In this document: positions 17,238 through 62,700 of the stretch, piece by piece
Layout of the letters: each line of letters begins with the position of its first letter
How positions within the stretch are numbered: position 1 is the first letter of the stretch
IMG/VR virus record: IMGVR_UViG_3300020577_003668
Coordinates: 32,001-96,000 of that record
DNA: 64,000 nt
Direction: 5' to 3' (one strand)
DNA from: a virus
Lineage: Duplodnaviria; Caudoviricetes
The notes under the pieces: generated by a model
The model's input: the letters and a program-made list of their open reading frames with translations, nothing else
The model's database searches: none
What the model was told of the DNA's origin: nothing
Position numbers and translations under genes: made by a program

Positions 17238-17921
17238 AGCTTAATTCTCTAGACTATGTCCTATACAAGACGCATAAATCCGTGCTTGAAGCCTGTCGTG
17301 AATTGATGATAGAATATCATTCTGAAGTCGAAATTCATCTAAAGCAATGCACATCTTGCGGCATCTGGCTCAAACCGGAACAGCTCAAGAAGGATTTAGA
17401 TGGGCTAGATATTTGCAATACTTGTTTAACAGCTTACGGACCCTAAAATGCTTTGGCTTATTAATTACGAATCTTCTGAGTGGTGTGGTGGAGAATCGCA
17501 CGTCGTTGTAGTTGCTGAAACCGCCGACGAGGCAAACTATCTTGCCGAAGACCACATGGAATCGACCATGCGTGAACTTTTTAGCGATGAGTACGCCGAA
17601 CTGGAAGCAGAATACGCAGAATACGCAGAAGACGGTATAGACGCAGTTTTTGACTGTGCTTATACTATCAACAGTATTGAAGCGTTTGACGAGAATCATG
17701 AACACTGGAAGTTCTATTGCGATCCTAGTCAAGAACAGTTCTATCCTACTATTGGTAGGTTCTGATGCCTGAAGATGTAAAGTCCCGTATAGAAGATATT
17801 GAGAACCAGCTGCGATATCTGGATCAGCGTCTAGAAGAAAATCCTCTAAATGCTACGGCCAGGGCTAGATATACGTATCTAGAAACGCTACTTAAAGAGC
17901 TAACTAAATTTCAGAATTAAT

Positions 17922-18001
17922 ACGACTGTACCTCAACGCTCTTCTAAAGCGTAGCAGAGTAAGTGGAGTCAATGTAGGTTCGAATCCTATCAGTCGTGCC
18001 A
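17922..18001 (+). tRNA. Atypical tRNA-Arg(UCU) lacking canonical D-arm
   Basis: Acceptor ACGACTG/CAGTCGT+GCCA, ASL ACGCT-CTTCTAA-AGCGT, perfect T-arm; only 7 nt between acceptor and ASL. Confidence 0.7.
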
Positions 18002-18015
18002 AATATTACGTATAC

Positions 18016-18091
18016 GCCTCGTTAACTCAATGGATAGAGTACTGCGCTCCTATCGCAATAGTTAGTCGTTCGATTCGACTACGAGGCTCCA
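18016..18091 (+). tRNA. tRNA-Arg(CCU)
   Basis: Cloverleaf, CCT anticodon, CCA. Confidence 0.85.
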
Positions 18092-18772
18092 TCCTTTAGT
18101 GCTTTTAGCCTTTCCATTTAATACTTCGTTAAGGTGAGAATTACTCAAGTTATAGGCTCTAGCAATTTCACTAATATTGGTTATATTACTAATAATTTCC
18201 CCCGTTTTATTATTTATAATGGCGGGATATACTTTACCCTTTGCGATGGTATTACGAGTAACTAATCTATTGGTGGTATTAAGCTGTGTATACTTTTCAG
18301 GAAACTTATCAGATAACCAAGTATGGCGTTTTCCTAGATTAATATCTCTAACTAAAGACACATTAGTCTCTGTAATATCTGCTATTTCTTGATATAGTAA
18401 TTCTGGCATTTCGGTAAGATAGTAAAATATTTCTATAATTGTATCGTTATCAAATTTAGAGCCAGGATGACTATCACCTACTAGCCCTTTACCGTTACAT
18501 ACTTTATTTCTACTATTAAGACCCGAATTATAGGAATCGTATTTACTAATCATTAGCTCCTCTAAGTTATCTAATTCATGTTCTAAACATTCAGTCAATA
18601 TTTCATAGGTAAATGGGCCGTACCTATTATATGCGTCCTGTAACTTAATGCTAGAAGCTCCTCCCTTAAGTTTTGTTTTATGCGAACTAATTCTACGCTC
18701 TATATTTACCGCTTGTCCGATATAGACACTATCTGAACCTTTAAACCTCAAAATATAAATACCACATGTCAT
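18062..18772 (-). CDS. GIY-YIG homing endonuclease
   Basis: GIY..VYIGQA...R..H; C-terminal NUMOD-like KGW. Confidence 0.9.
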   Translation of the reverse strand: MTCGIYILRFKGSDSVYIGQAVNIERRISSHKTKLKGGASSIKLQDAYNRYGPFTYEILTECLEHELDNLEELMISKYDSYNSGLNSRNKVCNGKGLVGDSHPGSKFDNDTIIEIFYYLTEMPELLYQEIADITETNVSLVRDINLGKRHTWLSDKFPEKYTQLNTTNRLVTRNTIAKGKVYPAIINNKTGEIISNITNISEIARAYNLSNSHLNEVLNGKAKSTKGWSLVVESND

Positions 18773-18858
18773 TTTCAACCTCCTTATGTTATCCTATAAT
18801 TATATAGTTTTAGGATAACATAAGCAAGTGGAAAATTTTTGACCCTGGACCAATTAAA

Positions 18859-19692
18859 ATGAATGATTTTCATAAGCATTTCCCTGCTAATACTAAGGGA
18901 AGAGATTTCGTGGTTGGCGACCTTCATGGTAGCCTATCTATTCTTGAGCACATGCTTAAGGAACTTAATTTTAACGAACAAACAGATCGCCTGTTTAGCG
19001 TAGGCGACATTGTAGATCGCGGGCCGGATAGTATAGGTTGTCTACGTTTGCTACGTAAGCCTTGGTTCCACGCTATCATGGGGAATCATGAAGACATGAT
19101 GCTTCGTGGGCTATCTGGAGAAGATTTGGGCCTGTGGCTAGCTAACGGTGGGAATTGGTACATTTACCTTACTCGTGACGACGTGTATGATACTAAAGAT
19201 TTGTGCATTGAGCATGTACAGCATCTGCCTTTTGCAGCTACTGTTGATATGACAGACGGCCGCAAGTTCCATCTAGTACATGCTGAGTTTGATAACGTTG
19301 AGCCGATCAACGACAATGATCTTGCGCAGCGTATGCCGGAACTAATGAATGAGTTTTCTTTCGATGGTCCATTTCCTCTTTGGGGGCGTAAGCTATTTGA
19401 ACTTATTTTTTGGCGCGATTTAAGTGCTAAAGATATAGAGGAATACGTGGTGCAGATGAACAGCTTTAGGGCTATGGAACACTTTGGTAATCTGTCCACT
19501 ATTTTCTCAGGACATACTCCAGTTCGTAAGCCAACACAAATTGGTCCCCAGATTAATCTGGATACCTTTGGGTACAGAGCATATGAAGGTATGGAAGATG
19601 CGGCTCTAACTATCGCAGAGCCCTTTACAGGCAAGTTCTGGTCGTCAACCGGCGGTCCAGTGGTCGAAGTTAACAAATTGGTAATCGTATGA
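18859..19692 (+). CDS. Ser/Thr protein phosphatase (lambda NinI/PphA-like)
   Basis: GDLHG, GDIVDRG, GNHE, GHTP, LDT. Confidence 0.9.
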   Translation: MNDFHKHFPANTKGRDFVVGDLHGSLSILEHMLKELNFNEQTDRLFSVGDIVDRGPDSIGCLRLLRKPWFHAIMGNHEDMMLRGLSGEDLGLWLANGGNWYIYLTRDDVYDTKDLCIEHVQHLPFAATVDMTDGRKFHLVHAEFDNVEPINDNDLAQRMPELMNEFSFDGPFPLWGRKLFELIFWRDLSAKDIEEYVVQMNSFRAMEHFGNLSTIFSGHTPVRKPTQIGPQINLDTFGYRAYEGMEDAALTIAEPFTGKFWSSTGGPVVEVNKLVIV

Positions 19693-20709
19693 AAGAAACC
19701 CCAGAAGAACGTGAAGAACGTAAGCAACGTGAAAAGGATCGTCGCAATGCCAGACGTACAAAACGACCTCCGGTGGAAGAAGCCGTTCAACTGGGATGAG
19801 TTGTTAAGTTCCACCATTAGGTGGAACGACGACTTACCAGAAGTAGTGCATCTTGATGCTGACGAAGAAGAATGGAAGGCTGGCTGGAATCAGTATTGTT
19901 TAGCCGCAGGTCTTCTGCAGGATACTGATTGGGCAGGATTAGAAAACGAGACTTGCGGGCCCGAATTGATTGTTCTATAATAGATATTCGATTGGGGGAA
20001 ACAGCATGATTAATCAAGCCACACTAAACCAAGTTAATTTGCTTACTACTAAGCAACTTATTAAGCAGATTAAATCTGCTATTTCTTTCGAGGAAAAGCA
20101 TCCGGAATTTAAGCATGGTTGGCACAACGAATACGTCCAGCATATGAAGATGATTCTAGCTAACCGTATAGGAAAGAAATAGTATGGCTAGTGGATATAC
20201 AAAAGACTTTCTAGTATCGGCTTTTCTAAGTCGATACTACTCGCTTCCAGAAGATAAGTTTGACGCACTGGAAAAGATGGCTAATAGTTTCTATGATGAA
20301 GTGGGGCGCGACAAGTTCCGCGTTTCGTGCTCTCTAGATGCTGATGCTATCAAGACCGCTAAAAATTCTGGCTTGATCTGATTGGTCTTTATCTATATAA
20401 TAGATATATCGGATGGGAAAACAAGCCAAGCGCATAGATGTTATATCGAACGTGTAACTCATAGCATTCCTATCCTACAGCCGTTACTGCTTAGGCTTGA
20501 TTAAGCTGCTCCCTGACTTCGTGGAGTGAAAGTTGTCCTTAATGGGAGACTAAACCATTAAGTCTGAATACTACTAGAAGTAGTTTACGCAGAGAAACGA
20601 AACACTGCCACCTATAGGACACACGTATTTGTGTTCTTTGTGAGAGCATGATCCGATGGTATCTGTATCGCTAACTCTAACGCTGGCCAGCATAGTGTTC
20701 AGACTTAAT

Positions 20710-20796
20710 GGGACCCTTTCCTGCCGGGAGTCTGTAAAACTCTTGCTATATAAGGCGGGTTGGCTGCGTGAGGATCGAAACCTCGGGGGCCCACCA
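20710..20796 (+). tRNA. Atypical tRNA-Tyr(GUA) lacking canonical D-arm
   Basis: GGGACCC/GGGGCCC+ACCA, ASL GGAGT-CTGTAAA-ACTCT, T-arm; CCTGCC pairs with GGCGGG downstream of the ASL. Confidence 0.7.
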
Positions 20797-21202
20797 GAAT
20801 GTGGCTGTTGAATAGGGTGCCTTTACCGGCAATTCAACATAAGTGAGACTAACAATTGGCAGTGGACATGCCTTACAGCGCACGTTAGACCTTTCCTAGT
20901 TGAGCCCATTAGTTAAATCTAAGAGTTATGAGCATGTTACTTAGGATCAAAACGGCTCGCCTGCCCCGGGCGCTATTCTAGATGTTCTCTAGGGGACGTA
21001 TAGCAAGTACGAAGAAGTGCTCACCCGCTGGTTTAACGCGGTAATCCAGCCCCAGGACGCGCGGTAACCTGGAACTATAAATTAGTATACTTAGGCTATG
21101 CAGAGAATGTTATAAAGCCTAGTGACCACAAAGCTGGTAGTATACTAACTTATAGTTAGAGAGTAATTAACTTTAACTGTAGCTGGGAGTCATGAACCTA
21201 GT

Positions 21203-21297
21203 GATCCGTGGTGATGAAATGGCAAACATAGGCCCCCGATAGGGTCGGCGTAGCTAAATAACGCTTGCAGGTATCGTAGTCCTGCCCACAATGGATC
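21203..21297 (+). ncRNA. tRNA-like RNA (Leu/Ser-type D and V arms, degenerate anticodon, no CCA)
   Basis: GATGAAATGGCAAACAT D-arm, GCAGG/CCTGC T-stem. Confidence 0.55.
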
Positions 21298-22339
21298 AAT
21301 TATATTTTAGCAGTTTACCTCTACCAGTCCAGCTGGCTCGGTAGGATAAGTACGGATAAAGAAGAGGTCCGTGCCTGCTAAAATATAATTAGGAATAGTA
21401 ATGAAAGAAGAGTTTCCAAGACAACTAACTGAGGACTACTACGACGATGGTAGAGGTCCGTCATTGACCTATCACGGGTACAATCTGTATAAAACCTGTA
21501 TCGCGTGTCCTGAACAGTACGACGTGTTTAAGGATGGAAAGCTTGTAGGATATATTAGGCTTCGTGGTGGTTGGCTTCAGGCTTTTTGCCCTGATGTTTT
21601 CCTTGAGCGAGTTTACTTCCACGAGTTTCCTAACGACGAGTGGAAGGGTTGCTTTGAAACTGACGAAGAACAGGACTACTATCTAGAGTACGTAATCATA
21701 GCGATTGATGATTGGGTACGAAAAAACGAACTTGAATCGCAAAGCCTTTCTTGATATAATAATTGTTCGATATGTGATAATACCAAGCATACCGCTGAGG
21801 TACAAGGCGTAGTATGTTAGCCGGATCGCAAGACGCAAAACGAGTAATGCGGCGCACTCGGGTATATTTACTAGAGGATGAGCGCTCTAGTATCTTAATG
21901 TAGCTTCGATACCCAGGAAGACTGGTCACGGTCCTGGCAGTAATATGTGACCGTCTACAGACCCAGAGTTGAGTTTACAACTCTTCAAAAAGAAAACTGG
22001 TGGAACAGTCTAACTATCGACATTAAATTTAGTCAATCTGTGAAACACCAGGTTGGTCCCGACAGTCGCAAGTCTTTAACACGCGAGTAGGTAATATGTC
22101 TGACTATTCCGTCGAAAGATACGGTGCATTGGGGAAGACACGCTTTAAGCTGCTAACAGGCGTTTTCTATTGAGTTAGCCCAGGACCGAGTAACCTGGAC
22201 CTTTATACGAAGTAATTAAGGCTGGACGGATACGACGTACTTGAACTACGTCCGATAACGACCGCTGAGAATTGGTTGGTCCCTTTTCTACAGCTTCTAG
22301 CACGACCACTTAGTTGCTTCCTATAAAGGTTTTGAATTA

Positions 22340-22444
22340 CCCTGTATTGCTAATATTGGTAAAGAGCGACCCTTATAAAGTCGTAGTAAGCACTCAATAG
22401 ATAATTGAGCTTCAATCTTGGTTCGATTCCAAGTGCAGGGACCA
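22340..22444 (+). tRNA. tRNA-Ile(UAU) with long variable arm
   Basis: CCCTGTA/TGCAGGG+ACCA, TAT anticodon, ~33-nt variable region. Confidence 0.75.
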
Positions 22445-22448
22445 CAAC

Positions 22449-22515
22449 AGGCGAAAAGGGTAGCTCCCCTGACAGTGCCTATATCACTGTATAGCCTATC
22501 TTATATAGGAAGAGT
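22449..22515 (+). promoter_or_regulatory. Conserved pseudoknotted leader of endonuclease genes, copy 1
   Basis: GAAAAGGGTAGCTCCCC core; loop CCTATAT pairs with ATATAGG at the RBS. Confidence 0.75.
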
Positions 22516-23106
22516 ATGTATACTAAAGAAATAGTCCCATTAAAGGGCCTAAAAGCTGGCTATGTAATATTCAGAGATCATAGCCACCCCTTAGCCTATG
22601 ATGATGGCGCTGTATATTTGCACAGACATGTTGCAAGTATTAAGTTGGGGAGATGGGTTACAAGCGAAGAGTATGTTCATCATATTGATGAAAATAAGTT
22701 AAATAATGAACCTTATAATCTAGAAATACTATCTAACTCAGAGCATAGTAAGATACATAATCCAAATAATTTAAGTAAGATTATTTGCCCAACATGTAAA
22801 AAAGAATTCCAACCCATTAGTTGCAAAATACAATATTGTTCTCCTAAATGTTACGCAGTAACAACTATTAAAAATACAAAGATAACAAAAGAATTATTAG
22901 ATGAACTTATACCTAAGACTTCTTGGAGAGATTTAGGTAATATGTTTGGATATTCAGATAACGGAATAAAGAAGCGTGCTAAGGCTTTAGGGTGTGACAC
23001 TTCTAATGCAAAGAATAAGCGAATGCCAGCTAGACCGAATGGGGGGTACACGCTTGATAAGCGTGCTGTACTTGGATCGAAACCAAGAGTTGGTACCAAA
23101 GGATAA
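22516..23106 (+). CDS. HNH homing endonuclease
   Basis: YLHRHV, VHHIDENKLNN, NL..L...EH, CPTC/YCS..C. Confidence 0.9.
   Translation: MYTKEIVPLKGLKAGYVIFRDHSHPLAYDDGAVYLHRHVASIKLGRWVTSEEYVHHIDENKLNNEPYNLEILSNSEHSKIHNPNNLSKIICPTCKKEFQPISCKIQYCSPKCYAVTTIKNTKITKELLDELIPKTSWRDLGNMFGYSDNGIKKRAKALGCDTSNAKNKRMPARPNGGYTLDKRAVLGSKPRVGTKG
23025..23098 (+). tRNA. tRNA-Ile(GAU)
   Basis: Cloverleaf, GAT anticodon, CCA; lies inside the 3' end of the HNH ORF. Confidence 0.85.
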
Positions 23107-23107
23107 T

Positions 23108-23190
23108 GCCCCTGTGACTTATGCAAATTGGCACAGCTACGAGTCTTAGAAGCTCGGTTTTTCCCGGTTCGAATCCGGGCGGGGGTACCA
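23108..23190 (+). tRNA. tRNA-Leu(UAG), short variable arm
   Basis: CGAGT-CTTAGAA-GCTCG, CCA. Confidence 0.85.
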
Positions 23191-28679: not shown

Positions 28680-28754
28680 TGCCGGTAAATCGACTGTATC
28701 AGATACTTGGCTTTGACCCAAGGTAAGTAGGTTAGATTCCTACACCGGCTGCCA
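28680..28754 (+). tRNA. tRNA-Gln(UUG)
   Basis: TTG anticodon, U1:U72 mismatch, GCCA. Confidence 0.8.
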
Positions 28755-29577: not shown

Positions 29578-30909
29578 ATGTCTAGCCTAAATCGTACTGT
29601 ATATCGCCAAAATATTACTGGTGCCCAAATGGCCCAGAATCATCACGGCCTGAAGGTTACTGCCCTATCTCCTGAAGCCAAGCTGACTCGCCTAACCATG
29701 GCGCACATGCTTTGGGAAAAGCAATTCTATGTTGACGGACAGAAGTCCGCCGACCTAATGGCGTCCCTTGTTACCAAGGTGTCACCATCGTTCGTGTCCA
29801 ACCTGGCTCGCCAGGCGCGCGATAAGTTCAAGCTTCGTCACGTGCCTCTGCACCTGATGCGTTCACTTGCGAAGTCAGGCGCTCTCAAGGCGGCTGATCT
29901 AGCTGAAGTGATCCAACGTCCGGACGAACTTTCCGAGTTCGTTTCCCTTTACTGGGCCGACAAGAAGCAACCTCTGTCCAACCAGGTTAAGAAGGGTCTT
30001 GCACTTGCCTTTGGTAAGTTCAACGAATACCAACTTGCTAAGTGGGATAAGAACTCCGCAGTGGTATCGCTGCGCGACGTGATGTTCCTAGCACACCCAA
30101 AGCCTGCTAACGCAGAGCAAGCTGCCCTTTTCAAGAAGGTAGCAGACCAAAAGCTAGAAACCCCTGATACTTGGGAAACCAATCTATCTGCGGGTGCGGA
30201 TAAGAAGGCTACTTTTACCACCCTAATGCAGGATGGTAAGCTAGGTGCGCTTGCGTTCCTACGTAACCTTCGTAACATGGTGGAATCTGGTGTATCCGAA
30301 TCTCTGATTCGTGATTACTCCAAGACAGTTAACACTGATCGTGTTCTACCTTTCCGTTTCCTTGCGGCAGCCCGCATTGTTCCTCAATTTGAGGACATGC
30401 TAGAAGCAATGATGTTCCGTTCCTGCGAAGGTATGGAAAAGCTGCCAGGCAAGACTAAGCTATACGTAGACGTTTCCGGCTCCATGTATACCCCTAAGGT
30501 TAGTGAAAAGTCCGACCTAACACGTCAGGATGCTTCGCTTGCCCTAGCTATTCTGTGTCGGGAACTATGCGAAGAAGTAGAAATCTACAGCTTCAGCGGA
30601 AAATCTCTACGTATTGCCCCTCGCCGAGGGTTTGCTCTAGCAGACGCTATCAAGACCAGCCAAGGCTGCTCTGGTACTCAGCTAGGACATAGTCTGAAAG
30701 AAACCGAATCTAAAGCTGATCGCATCGTTGTAATCACTGATGAACAATCTAGTGATATGCCTTCTGCTCCTTTTGGTGGAGCCAAGGGTTACCTAATCAA
30801 CGTAGGTAGCTATCAGAACGGCGTTAACCATAACGCCTGGACTAGCATTACTGGCTTCTCCGAAGCTGTATTTAGCTATATCCAAATGTTCGAACGCGAA
30901 GGCGTTTAA
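29578..30909 (+). CDS. Ro60/Rsr-like TROVE-domain RNA-binding protein
   Basis: TROVE motifs (F.EYQLAKW, LRDV..L.HPKP, TWE..LS, A.LRNLRN, LPFRF) and vWA MIDAS DVSGS..T..ITDEQ. Confidence 0.93.
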   Translation: MSSLNRTVYRQNITGAQMAQNHHGLKVTALSPEAKLTRLTMAHMLWEKQFYVDGQKSADLMASLVTKVSPSFVSNLARQARDKFKLRHVPLHLMRSLAKSGALKAADLAEVIQRPDELSEFVSLYWADKKQPLSNQVKKGLALAFGKFNEYQLAKWDKNSAVVSLRDVMFLAHPKPANAEQAALFKKVADQKLETPDTWETNLSAGADKKATFTTLMQDGKLGALAFLRNLRNMVESGVSESLIRDYSKTVNTDRVLPFRFLAAARIVPQFEDMLEAMMFRSCEGMEKLPGKTKLYVDVSGSMYTPKVSEKSDLTRQDASLALAILCRELCEEVEIYSFSGKSLRIAPRRGFALADAIKTSQGCSGTQLGHSLKETESKADRIVVITDEQSSDMPSAPFGGAKGYLINVGSYQNGVNHNAWTSITGFSEAVFSYIQMFEREGV

Positions 30910-31914: not shown

Positions 31915-32220
31915 GATTGTCGTAATTCGGATCAAGCAGATGTGGGCCAGACGGGGCTTCGCCGCCCCCACCTCCACCAGTTAGTATAGAGTATAGATGC
32001 GCATCTAGTAATAGGCTAAGACCTAACAGAAATGTTCTCTGTACTAACTAATGGGGGTGAATATGTTTTCGATGGCGCAAATAAGTGAGATACGCGACAC
32101 GGTAGGCGATGACCGTTAATCAAGCAAAACCTTTAAATGCAGCAAACGATGCATACTTCGGAGAAGAACGCCTAGCGGCGTAATCCCGATGTAGGAGCTA
32201 TCCTATATCAAACAAAATAG
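31915..32220 (+). ncRNA. ssrA: Circularly permuted (two-piece) tmRNA
   Basis: Acceptor piece ending CACCTCC-ACCA (31979) precedes coding piece starting GGGGGTG (32053), giving G3:U70; tag (A)ANDAYFGEERLAA* ends 32183. Confidence 0.9.
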
Positions 32221-59747: not shown

Positions 59748-62700
59748 ATGATTGATGGGGTGTATGAAACATTCATTGCTAAGTCTAGATACGCAAGATA
59801 TTTAGACGAAGAGGCCAGGCGAGAAAATTGGTCGGAAACTACTAACCGATATCTAGAATTCATACAAGAACACCTTCTAGAAAAGCACGAATATCTTATC
59901 CCTGAAGATGTCCTGGAAGAACTACGGGGTGCTATTCTTAACAACGAAGTATATCCTAGTATGCGTGCATTGATGACTGCTGGTGAAGCTCTGGAGCGAG
60001 ATAATACCGCGGGATTCAATTGTTCTTACTTGCCTGTTGATGATATTAAATCATTCGACGAAGCAATGTATATCCTTATGTGCGGCGTTGGCGTGGGCTT
60101 CAGCGTGGAAAGGCAGTATATTTGTAAGCTTCCAGAAGTACCAGATAGAATCTATCCTTCCGAGAGCTATATCATGGTACACGACTCTAAGGAAGGCTGG
60201 GCTAAAGCGCTACGACAACTCATTGCCTTACTGTATTCTGGTGAAGCTGCCAAATGGGATGTTAGTGAGGTTAGACCTGCAGGCGCAAGACTTAAAACTT
60301 TTGGAGGCCGCTCTTCAGGACCAGGTCCTTTGGTCGACTTATTTAGATTCGTTACAAAAATATTTAAAGGCGCGACAGGACGAAAACTAACCTCCCTAGA
60401 ATGTCATGATATCATGTGCAAGATCGGCGAAGTTGTTGTAGTTGGCGGTGTTCGCCGATCCGCAATGATCTCGCTATCTAATCTGTCTGATGATCGTATG
60501 CGTCATGCTAAGTCAGGTGCATGGTGGGAGGCTAATCCACAACGTGCTTTAGCAAATAACAGTGCTTGCTATACTGAACGTCCTGAAGTGGGCGTATTTA
60601 TGCAGGAGTGGTTATCTCTATATGAGTCAAAGTCTGGTGAAAGAGGAATCTTTAATAGAGAAGCAGCTACTAAAGTGGCTGCTAGGAACGGACGAAGAGA
60701 AACGGAAGGGCATGAATTTGGCACTAATCCATGTTCCGAAATTATCTTACGGCCATATCAGTTTTGCAACCTATCAACAAGCGTTGTAAGAGCTACAGAT
60801 ACACGAGAGGATTTACTTAGGAAAGTCCGTCTAGCAGCGATATTTGGTACGTATCAGTCCACTCTAACTAATTTTCCTTACTTAAGAAAAATCTGGCAAA
60901 AGAATACAGAGGAAGAGCGTCTATTAGGCGTTTCAATGACTGGACCTCTAGATAATCCCCTGCTTAATAATCCAGATGATCCTGGGTTAGAGAAATTACT
61001 AGAAGAGCTGAAAGCTGAAGCTGTACGCGTCAACAAGGTGCTTGCCATGCAAATTGGCATTCCTCAGGCGACGGCTGTAACGGCTTAACAAAATTTAGAC
61101 TTGAAATTTTTCAACAACTGTTATATAATTATTATACTGGTATAAAAATACAGGAATAATAAAATGATAGATGTAGAAAAAGTATTAAATGAATATGGTA
61201 TTGACAAGGCTAGAGACCTATTTTTAAGAGAAGGATATACTCTTACTCAGTTTCATTTAGAAACTAAATTAAGTACTAGTAAAAATAGAACTTCGCAGAG
61301 AGTGTATGAAGAAGTATATAGAATACTCGGTATTACCGAGATTCCTTATAAAGAAGATACACAGCCTGTTAGAAAATTTAAATTAGAATTTGATAGAGTC
61401 TCCGGCAAGTACTGGGAGTCTGACTATATAGTAGAGGTTCTACTAGATAAGCTACAAAATCCAATACTTAATAAGGCGGAGAATAGAGAGAGATACGTAA
61501 TAGGTTTCCCTAAACACCCTAATTCGGATCCTACGTCTAATCAAATTAAAGCACATATTGTTCAATGGGAAATATTAAATGAACAATATGTGCCTAGTAA
61601 TCATTGGGTAATACCCGTAGATGATGATTATACTAACTTAGATATGGATAACTGGGTTTTGGTAAATACGACCGAATTTAAGTCAGATAGATTTACCAGT
61701 GAAGGTAACCCTTCATATAAGCACGGAAAATCAGGAAGACATAAGTTAGGCGGCTGGGCGTTAATTAGTAAAAATAGTATTAATAAGCATAGATTCTGTA
61801 CAAGATGTAATACAGATAAAGGTTTAATAGTGCATCATATTATTAACTATCATCTATTTACTAATCCCATGGAAGCGCATAATATAGATAATTTATTAGT
61901 ATTATGCCAAAGTTGTCATGCCAAAATACATCTAACTAATCTAAATATAAAGGCCCTTATTGAGGAAACTCAATATAGCAAATTACTTAAATTGCTGGAA
62001 ACTCTCAAGAGCCAAGTTCCAGACTCCATGAAGGAAACTTACGTGGACGTAGAAAAGCAACTTGGACTAACAGACAATCAGCAGCCAAGCACCTAAAGAA
62101 AAGTATCTAAGGTGAAGGTTCAACGACTATCCATTTATGGAGTAGGACCGAAGACGGTTCGAAAAAGGTAATACCCTATTAATTATGGGTAATGATATAG
62201 TCTGAGCTATATAGAAATATATAGAGAGAATACGGAATCGGTATTCTCGTAACATAACTGATCAAACCAGAAGGAACAACTAGCGAGCGAGCTGACTCTG
62301 CTAGTGGTCTGCATACACGACACGCTAAGTTCTATATTCGTAGAGTACGTGGAGATGTAAAAGATCCACTTACACAGTTTATGATGGCTAGCGGTGTACC
62401 TTGGGAACCGGATGTAATGAAACCGGATTCTACTGTAGTATTTAGTTTCGCAAAGAAGGCTCCAGAAGGTGCTCTAGTAAAGGCCGACCTATCTGCTATT
62501 CAGCATCTGAAGCTATGGCTAGCGTACCAACGATTCTACTGCGAGCATAAACCATCTATTACAGTTTCTGTAAAAGAGAAAGAGTGGCCTTCCGTTGGTG
62601 CATTCGTATGGGATCATTTCGATGAAATGAGCGGGGTTAGTTTCCTACCGGATGATGGTGGCAGTTATAGACAAGCACCGTATGAAGAGTGTACCGAGGA

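What the first reader, a model, noticed from the sequence alone, without database searches (positions are those of the whole stretch)
17922..20796. Two tRNAs with a rearranged fold: no D hairpin, D-like strand placed after the anticodon arm
Seen: Arg(UCU) 17922-18001 and Tyr(GUA) 20710-20796 have good acceptor, anticodon and T arms and encoded CCA, but only a short strand between acceptor and ASL. That strand can pair with a segment 3' of the ASL (CCTGCC/GGCGGG; CTC/GAG), which is followed by a GG-containing D-loop-like stretch. This is the only Tyr tRNA I found in an otherwise complete 20-amino-acid set. Inference: a functional non-canonical tRNA architecture, possibly resistant to host tRNases or modification enzymes.
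Basis: partly seen in the sequence, partly recalled or inferred. Interest (0 to 1): 0.78.

Follow-up and report, generated by a model that had tools for sequence, protein, structure and literature searches.

The report
Two rewired non-cloverleaf phage tRNAs
This T5-like phage carries an arginine tRNA and its only tyrosine tRNA in a conserved layout where half of the D-arm sits behind the anticodon arm, a non-cloverleaf design shared by many phages that gene finders miss and that I found in no paper.

Summary
Arg(UCU) at 17922-18001 and Tyr(GUA) at 20710-20796 have acceptor, anticodon and T arms and an encoded CCA, but no local D hairpin.

- **Both belong to conserved families.** I collected 47 distinct Arg sequences and 19 Tyr sequences from phage genomes and metagenomes.
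- **The odd pairing is real.** The short strand before the anticodon arm (X) pairs with a strand behind it (Y). Compensatory changes support this: Arg X/Y is 100% paired with 2 of 3 pairs covarying; Tyr X/Y is 97% paired with 5 of 6 covarying.
- **Tyr has extra features.** It has a second covarying helix (Z/Z', a variable-arm stem) that makes a pseudoknot with X/Y, and an 8/4 acceptor/T branch.
- **A D-loop-like stretch follows Y.** In Arg it reads A14, A15, U17, G18, G19, A20 and is invariant. Charging determinants are kept (Arg A20, C35, U36, A/G73; Tyr A73, G1-C72).
- **They fill gaps in the tRNA sets.** AGA is the phage's commonest Arg codon, and no cloverleaf AGA or Tyr tRNA exists here.

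Most likely these are working tRNAs with a rewired core. Expression and charging are not shown. This scan has already found both classes on other DNA. I found no published description.

The parts
17922..18001 (+). Rewired tRNA-Arg(UCU), whole gene, 80 nt, CCA encoded
   Evidence: Rfam tRNA model 38.3 bits with the D arm deleted. Family model R2 scores it 101.7 bits, though it was a training member. 47 distinct relatives.
17922..17928 (+). Arg acceptor 5' strand; pairs with 17991-17997
   Evidence: 7 of 7 pairs covary in alignment A4.
17929..17931 (+). T8 A9 C10 linker
   Evidence: T and A are the same in all 47 sequences; C in 46 of 47.
17932..17934 (+). Arg strand X (CTC). It stands in for the D-stem 3' strand and runs on through A17935 into the anticodon stem.
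   Evidence: Pairs with 17957-17959. 100% paired in 47 sequences; pair types GC24/AU13/UA10 and CG23/GC19/UG4/AU1.
17936..17952 (+). Arg anticodon arm, loop CTTCTAA, anticodon TCT at 17943-17945
   Evidence: All 5 stem pairs covary. Anticodon is UCU in 45 of 47 sequences.
17953..17956 (+). AGCA, a variable-loop-like linker
   Evidence: A in 46 of 47 sequences, G in all 47; then 1-2 variable nt.
17957..17959 (+). Arg strand Y (GAG). It stands in for the D-stem 5' strand.
   Evidence: Covaries with X.
17960..17973 (+). D-loop-like stretch TAAGTGGAGTCAAT. I read it as 13, A14, A15, 16, U17, G18, G19, A20 ... U48.
   Evidence: Near-invariant in 47 of 47 sequences, apart from one optional nt. It resembles the D loop AATGGATA of the neighbouring cloverleaf Arg(CCU).
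17974..17990 (+). Arg T arm, loop TTCGAAT
   Evidence: 3 of 5 pairs covary.
17991..18001 (+). Arg acceptor 3' strand, G73, CCA
   Evidence: Position 73 is G or A in 44 of 46 sequences; CCA is encoded in most.
20710..20796 (+). Rewired, pseudoknotted tRNA-Tyr(GUA), whole gene, 87 nt, CCA encoded
   Evidence: Family model R1 scores it 70 bits, though it was a training member. Independent relatives score 67-68 bits. It is a conservation island against L157.
20710..20717 (+). Tyr acceptor 5' strand (8 nt); pairs with 20785-20792; A4-G mismatch
   Evidence: 8 of 8 pairs covary, including pair 8-83, which supports the 8/4 branch.
20720..20725 (+). Tyr strand X (CCTGCC)
   Evidence: Pairs with 20754-20759. 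97.4% paired, 5 of 6 pairs covary. A C-G to A-T compensatory change is seen in L157.
20727..20743 (+). Tyr anticodon arm, loop CTGTAAA, anticodon GTA at 20734-20736
   Evidence: 100% paired, 3 of 5 pairs covary. The loop is the same in all 19 sequences.
20744..20746 (+). Tyr strand Z (TGC), 5' half of the variable-arm stem
   Evidence: Pairs with 20766-20768. The family helix has 3 of 4 pairs covarying.
20754..20759 (+). Tyr strand Y (GGCGGG), inside the variable-arm loop
   Evidence: Covaries with X.
20760..20765 (+). TTGGCT, a GG-containing D-loop-like stretch (TGGTT in most relatives)
   Evidence: The GG is kept in all rows of A6 except the L018 lineage.
20766..20768 (+). Tyr strand Z' (GCG), 3' half of the variable-arm stem. 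It crosses X/Y, which makes the pseudoknot.
20770..20784 (+). Tyr T arm, 4-bp stem GAGG/CCTC, loop ATCGAAA
   Evidence: The same T loop occurs in the window's Ile(GAT) tRNA at 23025-23098.
20785..20796 (+). Tyr acceptor 3' strand, A73, CCA
   Evidence: A73 in 18 of 19 sequences; G1-C72 in 18 of 19.

Best explanation
Both genes most likely encode working elongator tRNAs whose core is wired differently from the cloverleaf.

**The rewiring.** The D-stem 3' strand (X) stays in front of the anticodon arm. The D-stem 5' strand (Y) and the GG-bearing D loop have moved into the variable region behind the anticodon arm. X pairs with Y around the anticodon arm, so a D stem can still stack on the anticodon stem, and the GG can still reach the T loop.

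**Why an L shape is still plausible.** The three new chain joints are acceptor-8-9 to strand 22-25, 44-45 to strand 10-13, and D-loop end to 48-49. All three link residues that already touch in an ordinary tRNA.

**The two versions.**
- In Arg (class I), the linker behind the anticodon stem is 3-4 nt.
- In Tyr (class II-like), a short variable-arm stem (Z/Z') carries Y and the GG in its loop. This gives a pseudoknot. The acceptor/T branch is 8/4.

**Proposed function.** Host RNase P and 3' processing release the RNAs. Host ArgRS and TyrRS charge them through the retained determinants. They read AGA and UAY for the phage.

**Shown versus inferred.** Shown: the helices, the invariant core and the distribution. 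Inferred: the 3D fold, processing, charging and use on the ribosome.
For: 1. **Arg helices.** On a MAFFT alignment of 11 sequences, RNAalifold predicts acceptor, X/Y, anticodon and T helices on its own. On 47 distinct sequences, 99.4% of cells pair and 17 of 20 pairs covary. X/Y is 100% paired. Slid controls pair at 36-45%.
2. **Tyr helices.** RNAalifold predicts X/Y on an unbiased alignment. On 19 sequences, 96.1% of cells pair and 21 of 27 pairs covary. X/Y has 5 of 6 pairs covarying and Z/Z' has 3 of 4.
3. **Window versus its relative L157.** The 87-nt Tyr gene differs at 4 sites, and these form two compensatory pairs, one in X/Y and one in the anticodon stem. The flanks diverge right after CCA. 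The chance of that pattern under uniform substitution is 2.6e-5.
4. **Invariant core.** The unpaired core of Arg is invariant in 47 of 47 sequences while the stems vary freely.
5. **Charging determinants** (listed in PMC9976931). Arg keeps an A right after the GG (A20-like) in 47/47, C35 in 47/47, U36 in 46/47, and A/G73 in 44/46. Tyr keeps A73 and G1-C72 in 18/19 each.
6. **Slot filling.** The window has no cloverleaf Arg(UCU) or Tyr tRNA. AGA makes up 38% of Arg codons. Of 56 Arg-bearing loci, only one also has a cloverleaf Arg(UCU). In the fullest clusters, Tyr is one of only two amino acids (L182, L189) or three (L179) with no cloverleaf tRNA.
7. **Co-occurrence.** Both rewired types occur together again in L157 and in L018/L120.
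Against: - No RNA, mature ends, aminoacylation or ribosome use has been observed. The RNA-library data are contigs and cannot show transcription.
- The 3D fold is reasoned from canonical tertiary contacts that I recalled from memory. It was not modelled.
- The window's Tyr has an A-G mismatch in the acceptor stem, a non-standard T loop (ATCGAAA) and only 3 Z/Z' pairs.
- Single-sequence folding energies are unremarkable (z = -1.7 and +0.46).
- Conserved anticodon loops and identity elements would also be kept in a decoy that mimics a tRNA.
- Later checks recorded in this scan priced 'used by the ribosome as it is' at only about 30-34%.
Confidence: 0.7

Rival explanations
1. They are conserved tRNA mimics that are not used in translation. 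For example, they could be decoys that soak up host tRNA-targeting defence nucleases or modification enzymes, or partners of the phage's Ro60-like protein.
For: - Phage tRNAs are known counter-measures to tRNA-cleaving defences. tRNA-Tyr is degraded by retron-Eco7 PtuAB and is rescued by the T5 tRNA-Tyr (PMC11555353).
- A decoy would also need a conserved anticodon loop.
- The window encodes a TROVE/Ro60-like protein at 29578-30909.
Against: - A decoy does not need A73/G1-C72, the A20-like base, an exact 12-bp acceptor/T branch or an encoded CCA all at once.
- The genes fill exactly the AGA and Tyr gaps in otherwise full tRNA sets.
- From memory, YrlA-type mimics have their ends locked in a Ro-binding stem. 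These RNAs have free acceptor ends.
Confidence: 0.15
2. They are working tRNAs, but they fold like mitochondrial D-armless tRNAs. X/Y would merely lengthen the anticodon stem, and the GG stretch would be a floppy connector that does not touch the T loop.
For: - X/Y is continuous with the anticodon stem on both strands in Arg (a 1-nt and a 3-4-nt internal loop).
- The L018/L120 Tyr lacks the GG.
Against: - The 14-nt stretch after Y is invariant in 47 of 47 Arg sequences and reads like a D loop with A14, A15, G18, G19 and A20. That level of conservation is not expected of a floppy connector.
- In L018/L120, the loss of the GG comes together with a changed T loop (AGCGTTA). That fits the two elements being partners (one lineage only).
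Confidence: 0.1
3. They are decaying tRNA pseudogenes, or the pairings are chance.
For: - Default ARAGORN misses both.
- Folding z-scores are weak.
- The window does hold one degenerate tRNA-like remnant at 22371-22444.
Against: - Compensatory changes occur in every helix across dozens of sequences from unrelated phages.
- The unpaired core is invariant.
- The gene-sized conservation island shows only compensatory differences.
Confidence: 0.02
4. The genes are rearranged precursors that are cut and rejoined into an ordinary cloverleaf after transcription, as happens with permuted or split tRNA genes in some algae and archaea.
For: All parts of a cloverleaf are present, only in a different order.
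Against: - Restoring the normal order needs two cuts and two ligations inside the molecule.
- I saw no splice-site-like motifs flanking the moved segment.
- No such pathway is known in bacteria (from memory).
- The acceptor ends and CCA are already in place.
Confidence: 0.03

Closest known systems
Ordinary class I bacterial and phage tRNA-Arg (Rfam RF00005), e.g. the window's own tRNA-Arg(CCU) at 18016-18091
   Same: 7/5 acceptor/T branch, T loop TTCGAAT, anticodon arm, A/G73, CCA, and a D-loop-like AATGGA motif with an A after the GG. The Rfam model scores it above threshold.
   Different: There is no local D hairpin. The D-stem 5' strand and D loop lie behind the anticodon arm and pair with a 3-nt strand in front of it.
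Bacterial class II tRNA-Tyr(GUA)
   Same: Anticodon loop CUGUAAA, A73, G1-C72, and a stem that starts right after the anticodon stem and ends right before the T stem, like a long variable arm.
   Different: The variable-arm loop supplies one strand of the D stem and the GG, which makes a pseudoknot. The branch is 8/4, not 7/5. There is no D hairpin. Neither ARAGORN nor Rfam finds the window's copy.
(8/4) allo-tRNAs and tRNA-Sec-like tRNAs of bacteria and phages (Mukai et al. 2017, PMC5389517)
   Same: The Tyr family has an 8-bp acceptor stem, a 4-bp T stem, a 6-bp D-type helix and a long variable region. This class is also reported in phages.
   Different: In allo-tRNAs the D arm is an ordinary local hairpin with a tetraloop. 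No rewiring or pseudoknot is reported there.
Metazoan mitochondrial D-armless tRNAs, e.g. mt-tRNA-Ser(AGY) (PMC7609411, PMC9427863)
   Same: [quoted passage not shown]
   Different: The mitochondrial tRNAs have lost the D stem and the GG, and need adapted partners. Here a covarying D-stem equivalent and a conserved D-loop-like stretch persist, in phages that use bacterial machinery.
tRNA-like mimics: plant viral TLS elements and bacterial YrlA/Y RNA tRNA-like modules
   Same: Non-cloverleaf RNAs that imitate parts of a tRNA. Some TLS elements are aminoacylated (PMC9976931).
   Different: Those are domains of larger RNAs and do not decode. These are free-standing, gene-sized units inside tRNA clusters, with standard anticodon arms.

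Membership tests
tRNA (Rfam RF00005 cloverleaf) | Acceptor stem closed by the 5' and 3' ends, discriminator base, CCA end | tested here: met
   Arg has 7 bp, Tyr has 8 bp. Every acceptor pair covaries. CCA is encoded in both window genes.
tRNA (Rfam RF00005 cloverleaf) | Anticodon arm: 5-bp stem, 7-nt loop with U33 | tested here: met
   Loops are CTTCTAA and CTGTAAA. The stems are 100% paired.
tRNA (Rfam RF00005 cloverleaf) | T arm with a T-psi-C-type loop | tested here: met
   Arg has TTCGAAT. The Tyr family has TTCAATT. The window's Tyr has the variant ATCGAAA, also seen in the window's Ile tRNA.
tRNA (Rfam RF00005 cloverleaf) | Local D hairpin between the acceptor stem and the anticodon stem | tested here: not met
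   Only 7 nt (Arg) or 9 nt (Tyr) lie there. Rfam aligns Arg with the D arm deleted.
tRNA (Rfam RF00005 cloverleaf) | Score at or above the Rfam gathering threshold (29 bits) | tested here: inconclusive
   Arg scores 38.3 bits (met). Tyr gets no hit at E<=10 (not met).
tRNA (functional class) | Aminoacylated and used on the ribosome | not testable with these tools
   The only indirect evidence is the retained identity elements and the filling of the AGA and Tyr slots.
Rewired-D-arm phage tRNA-Arg family (undescribed; defined in this scan) | A 3-bp X/Y helix around the anticodon arm, plus the invariant TAC...AG...G-TAA-(N)-TGGAGTCAAT core | tested here: met
   The window sequence has every invariant. 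R2 scores it 101.7 bits, though it was a training member. All 42 metagenome loci that matched the Arg sequence pattern score 75-105 bits.
Pseudoknotted phage tRNA-Tyr family (undescribed; defined in this scan) | An 8/4 branch, a 5-6-bp X/Y helix, a Z/Z' stem crossing it, and a GG stretch after Y | tested here: met
   The window has X/Y of 6 bp, Z/Z' of 3 bp, and TTGGCT. Relatives that were not used in training (L157, L018, L120) score 67-68 bits.
Mitochondrial-type D-armless tRNA | D stem and D-loop GG lost altogether, replaced by a short connector | tested here: not met
   A covarying D-stem equivalent and a conserved GG stretch are present.
(8/4) allo-tRNA | 8-bp acceptor stem plus 4-bp T stem | tested here: met
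   Applies to Tyr only. Pair 8-83 covaries (GC13/AU3/UG3).
(8/4) allo-tRNA | Local long D stem with a tetraloop | tested here: not met
   There is no local hairpin. The helix is formed with the variable-arm loop.

The most novel reading that the evidence does not exclude
Both RNAs are charged and decode AGA and UAY on bacterial ribosomes in their rewired form. That would make them natural non-cloverleaf elongator tRNAs outside organelles. In this reading, the rewiring was selected because it hides phage tRNAs from host anti-phage tRNA nucleases, or from other host factors that read the D-arm side of the molecule. That would explain why two unrelated rewired classes sit in one phage.
Probability: 0.2. 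Interest if true: 0.92.

Novelty: new variant of a known kind. Interest (0 to 1): 0.8.

Why it matters
- **It challenges a textbook assumption.** The cloverleaf is treated as universal outside organelles. A 2024 paper states that all known bacterial tRNAs adopt it (PMC11551756). If this is right, a conserved, widespread, topologically rewired tRNA working with ordinary bacterial synthetases, EF-Tu and ribosomes shows that the L shape can be built with a different chain path.
- **It exposes an annotation gap.** All 11 GenBank phage records that hold the Arg gene leave it unannotated. Phage tRNA sets and codon-supply analyses therefore miss it.
- **It offers new tools.** These are possible scaffolds for orthogonal tRNA engineering.
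- **It is testable.** Does the rewiring change recognition by tRNA-targeting defence systems? Cultured carriers exist, namely Pseudomonas phages PAK_P2 and vB_PpuM-Amme-3 and Limnohabitans phage DC31, so the bench tests are straightforward.

Tried and rejected
- **Megablast of 17700-21000 against phages:** no match.
- **blastn of the Tyr gene alone against phages:** no match.
- **Rfam at E<=10 over 20380-20950:** nothing.
- **Relatives through the neighbouring phosphatase gene:** only distant hits (at most 56% identity) with no useful synteny.
- **Single-sequence MFE folding:** z = -1.7 and +0.46. The Tyr MFE fold is not tRNA-like. This is uninformative for a pseudoknotted RNA.
- **Relaxed ARAGORN calls candidate 1 'tRNA-Ala(agc)'**. 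I rejected this. It ignores the perfect UCU anticodon arm that covaries in the family.
- **Pattern GTAA(N)TGGAGTCAATG in viral contigs:** Only hits with a tRNA context were kept.
- **Tyr pattern in genome contigs:** 46 pattern hits, none passing model R1 at E<=1e-5. So there is no cellular copy under this exact pattern. This is not proof of absence.
- **Sequencing runs:** two metatranscriptome runs hold a related strain with both genes. They are kept as contigs, may contain DNA, and cannot show transcription, ends or level. I therefore claim no expression evidence. Their joints match the L157 arrangement and so are not independent of it.
- **A random-substitution simulation timed out**. An exact count replaced it.
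- **Literature:** five full-text searches and reading of the two most relevant papers found no description of this layout.
Full report
**What is there.** The window is bases 32001-96000 of a single 105.5-kb contig with 41% G+C. Its family A DNA polymerase is 47% identical to those of T5-like Vibrio phages. It therefore looks like a distant T5-like phage. All its tRNA genes lie on the + strand.

Default ARAGORN finds 22 tRNAs and misses both candidates.
- 17922-18001 has a perfect 7-bp acceptor, a UCU anticodon arm, a TTCGAAT T arm, G73 and CCA. Only 7 nt lie where the D arm should be, and 21 nt lie behind the anticodon stem.
- 20710-20796 has a GUA anticodon arm, A73 and CCA. CCTGCC in front of the anticodon arm is complementary to GGCGGG behind it.
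- The Rfam tRNA model scores the first at 38.3 bits, with the D arm deleted and an 18-nt insertion. The second gets no Rfam match at all.

**The Arg gene belongs to a large family.** Sensitive blastn (words of 11 bases) found unannotated copies about 80% identical in Pseudomonas phages (PAK_P2, JG003, five P. putida phages, phiPsa397) and in Limnohabitans phage DC31. Pattern scans of viral and metagenome contigs added many more.
- A covariance model (R2) scored all 42 metagenome pattern hits at 75-105 bits.
- On 47 distinct sequences, 99.4% of cells pair and 17 of 20 pairs show changes on both sides. Slid controls pair at 36-45%.
- The questioned 3-bp helix X/Y (17932-17934 with 17957-17959) is paired in every sequence. 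Pair types are GC24/AU13/UA10 at one position and CG23/GC19/UG4/AU1 at the other.
- RNAalifold predicts the same four helices on an unbiased MAFFT alignment.
- The unpaired core is invariant while the stems vary: T8, A9, C10; an A before the anticodon stem; AG behind it; then, after Y, TAA-(N)-TGGAGTCAAT.
- That stretch reads like a D loop (A14, A15, U17, G18, G19, A20). It closely resembles the D loop AATGGATA of the ordinary Arg(CCU) gene next door.
- Anticodons are UCU in 45 sequences, CCU in 1 and ACG in 1. All are arginine.

**The Tyr gene also belongs to a family, and it is more elaborate.** A scan for its anticodon arm brought in ordinary Tyr tRNAs plus five with the same odd layout. 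A second pattern gave 16 distinct members.

The family has these features:
- an 8-bp acceptor stem;
- TT;
- a 5-6-nt strand X;
- one nucleotide;
- the anticodon arm;
- a 3-5-nt strand Z;
- 7-11 A/T-rich nucleotides;
- strand Y;
- TGGTT;
- strand Z';
- a 4-bp T stem.

X pairs with Y, and Z pairs with Z'. The two helices cross, so the core is a pseudoknot.

On 19 sequences, 96.1% of cells pair and 21 of 27 pairs covary. X/Y has 5 of 6 pairs covarying. Z/Z' has 3 of 4. Pair 8-83 covaries, which supports the 8/4 branch. RNAalifold finds X/Y on its own.

Z/Z' sits exactly where the stem of a class II variable arm sits. The simplest description is therefore that the loop of the variable arm supplies one strand of the D stem and the GG.

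In the window:
- X = 20720-20725
- Y = 20754-20759
- Z = 20744-20746
- Z' = 20766-20768
- the GG stretch = TTGGCT

**A close relative gives an independent test.** Contig L157 is 77-93% identical to the window. It was not used to build the model, and it carries both rewired genes.
- Its Tyr gene differs from the window's at four sites. These form two compensatory pairs: C-G to A-T in X/Y, and G-C to T-A in the anticodon stem.
- The flanks diverge directly after CCA and a few bases before position 1.
- Under uniform substitution that pattern has probability 2.6e-5.
- A second, unrelated lineage (L018/L120) also carries both rewired types.

**How it most likely works.** X runs through one nucleotide into the anticodon stem, as positions 22-25 and 26 do in a cloverleaf. 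Y is followed by the GG loop, as positions 10-13 are. The helix is therefore a D stem with its loop, joined to the rest of the chain differently.

From textbook tRNA structure (my memory, not tested here), the three new joints link residues that already touch:
- residue 9 lies on pair 12-23;
- residue 45 lies on pair 10-25;
- residue 21 lies by pair 8-14 and near residue 48.

An L shape with the usual elbow contact is therefore plausible.

Charging determinants are kept. According to PMC9976931, arginine identity rests on A20, C35, U/C36 and A/G73. Tyrosine identity in bacteria rests on A73 and G1-C72.
- Arg family: A after the GG in 47/47, C35 in 47/47, U36 in 46/47, A/G73 in 44/46.
- Tyr family: A73 in 18/19 and G1-C72 in 18/19.

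**The genes fill real gaps.**
- In the window, AGA is the commonest Arg codon (38%).
- No cloverleaf Arg(UCU) or Tyr tRNA exists in the genome.
- Of 56 loci with the rewired Arg, only one also has a cloverleaf Arg(UCU).
- In the fullest clusters that carry the rewired Tyr, few amino acids lack a cloverleaf tRNA, and Tyr is always one of them. L182 has 23 cloverleaf tRNAs and lacks only Thr and Tyr. L189 has 20 and lacks only Asn and Tyr. L179 has 19 and lacks Leu, Met and Tyr.

**What is not shown.** I have no evidence of transcription, processing, charging or decoding. Two metatranscriptome runs hold a related strain, but only as contigs. The 3D argument is inference. A non-translating mimic remains possible.

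**Comparison and novelty.**
- The nearest described things are ordinary tRNA-Arg and class II tRNA-Tyr, the 8/4 allo-tRNAs (PMC5389517), and mitochondrial D-armless tRNAs (PMC7609411).
- None has a D stem made of strands on either side of the anticodon arm.
- Five literature searches found no description. A 2024 paper states that all known bacterial tRNAs are cloverleaves (PMC11551756).
- Earlier notes of this scan report the same Arg and Tyr classes in other phages. I reached my reading before seeing them, and it agrees with them.
- New here: both classes together in one genome and in two further lineages, the compensatory differences against a close relative, and the slot-filling counts.

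Noticed in passing
window 20555-20573 with 20693-20711: A long-range helix of about 19 bp lies directly upstream of the Tyr gene. Its 3' arm overlaps G1-G2 of the tRNA. L157 has the same helix with different, compensating letters (AAGTCTGAA/TTCAGACTT versus AATCAAGTA/TACTTGATT), enclosing a different insert. There is no Rfam match. It could be a leader or processing structure, or a separate small RNA.
   Followed up: partly
window 21788-21864: A 77-nt island is 95% identical to L157 between diverged flanks. It lies mostly in non-coding DNA just after the ORF ending at 21754; the L157 match starts inside the 3' end of a minus-strand ORF (21696-21929). It gets no tRNA or Rfam hit. It looks like another small structured RNA gene.
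   Followed up: partly
window 20797-21400 and 21755-22515: Two long stretches with few or no listed ORFs of 50 aa or more lie inside the tRNA cluster. They hold further short islands conserved with L157 (20904-20962, 21266-21310, 22141-22199).
   Followed up: no
window 29578-30909 (+): An ORF with a TROVE (Ro60-like) domain and a weak Ro60 vWA match. A phage-encoded Ro60-like protein suggests a Y-RNA-type partner somewhere nearby. Rfam found none.
   Followed up: no
window 31918-32183 (+): A permuted (two-piece) tmRNA, Rfam RF04321 at 96.7 bits, inside the phage tRNA region.
   Followed up: no
window 61932-62224 (+): A group I intron (Rfam, 79.6 bits) lies just downstream of an ORF with ribonucleotide reductase domains (59748-61088). 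The reductase gene is probably split by it.
   Followed up: no
window 28680-28751; 23025-23098; 23117-23190; 22371-22444: Other tRNA genes that default ARAGORN misses:
- Gln(UUG), found by Rfam.
- Ile(GAT) with T loop ATCGAAA, 96% conserved in L157.
- A 74-nt Leu(UAG) candidate with no long variable arm.
- A degenerate tRNA-like remnant (A at position 33, 4-bp acceptor) that has no match in L157.
   Followed up: partly
L058:237-321 (-); L018:5134-5229 (-); L276:5232-5310 (-); L275:5876-5953 (+): The rewired layout also occurs with other arginine anticodons:
- an 8/4 version with UCG;
- an ACG version with an extra hairpin before the T arm;
- an ACG member and a CCU member of the Arg family.
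   Followed up: partly
L018:988-1076 (-) and L120:6780-6868 (-): In this Tyr lineage the GG after Y is replaced (AAGTT) and the T loop is also unusual (AGCGTTA). This hints that the two elements are partners. It rests on one lineage only.
   Followed up: no
L191:8209-8303 (+): An ordinary Tyr(GUA) tRNA with a normal D hairpin sits about 700 nt upstream of the rewired Tyr gene in the same contig. The two forms can therefore coexist.
   Followed up: no
window 18062-18778 (-) and 22516-23106 (+): GIY-YIG and HNH endonuclease genes lie inside the tRNA cluster. The GIY-YIG ORF, as listed, overlaps the 3' end of tRNA-Arg(CCU).
   Followed up: no
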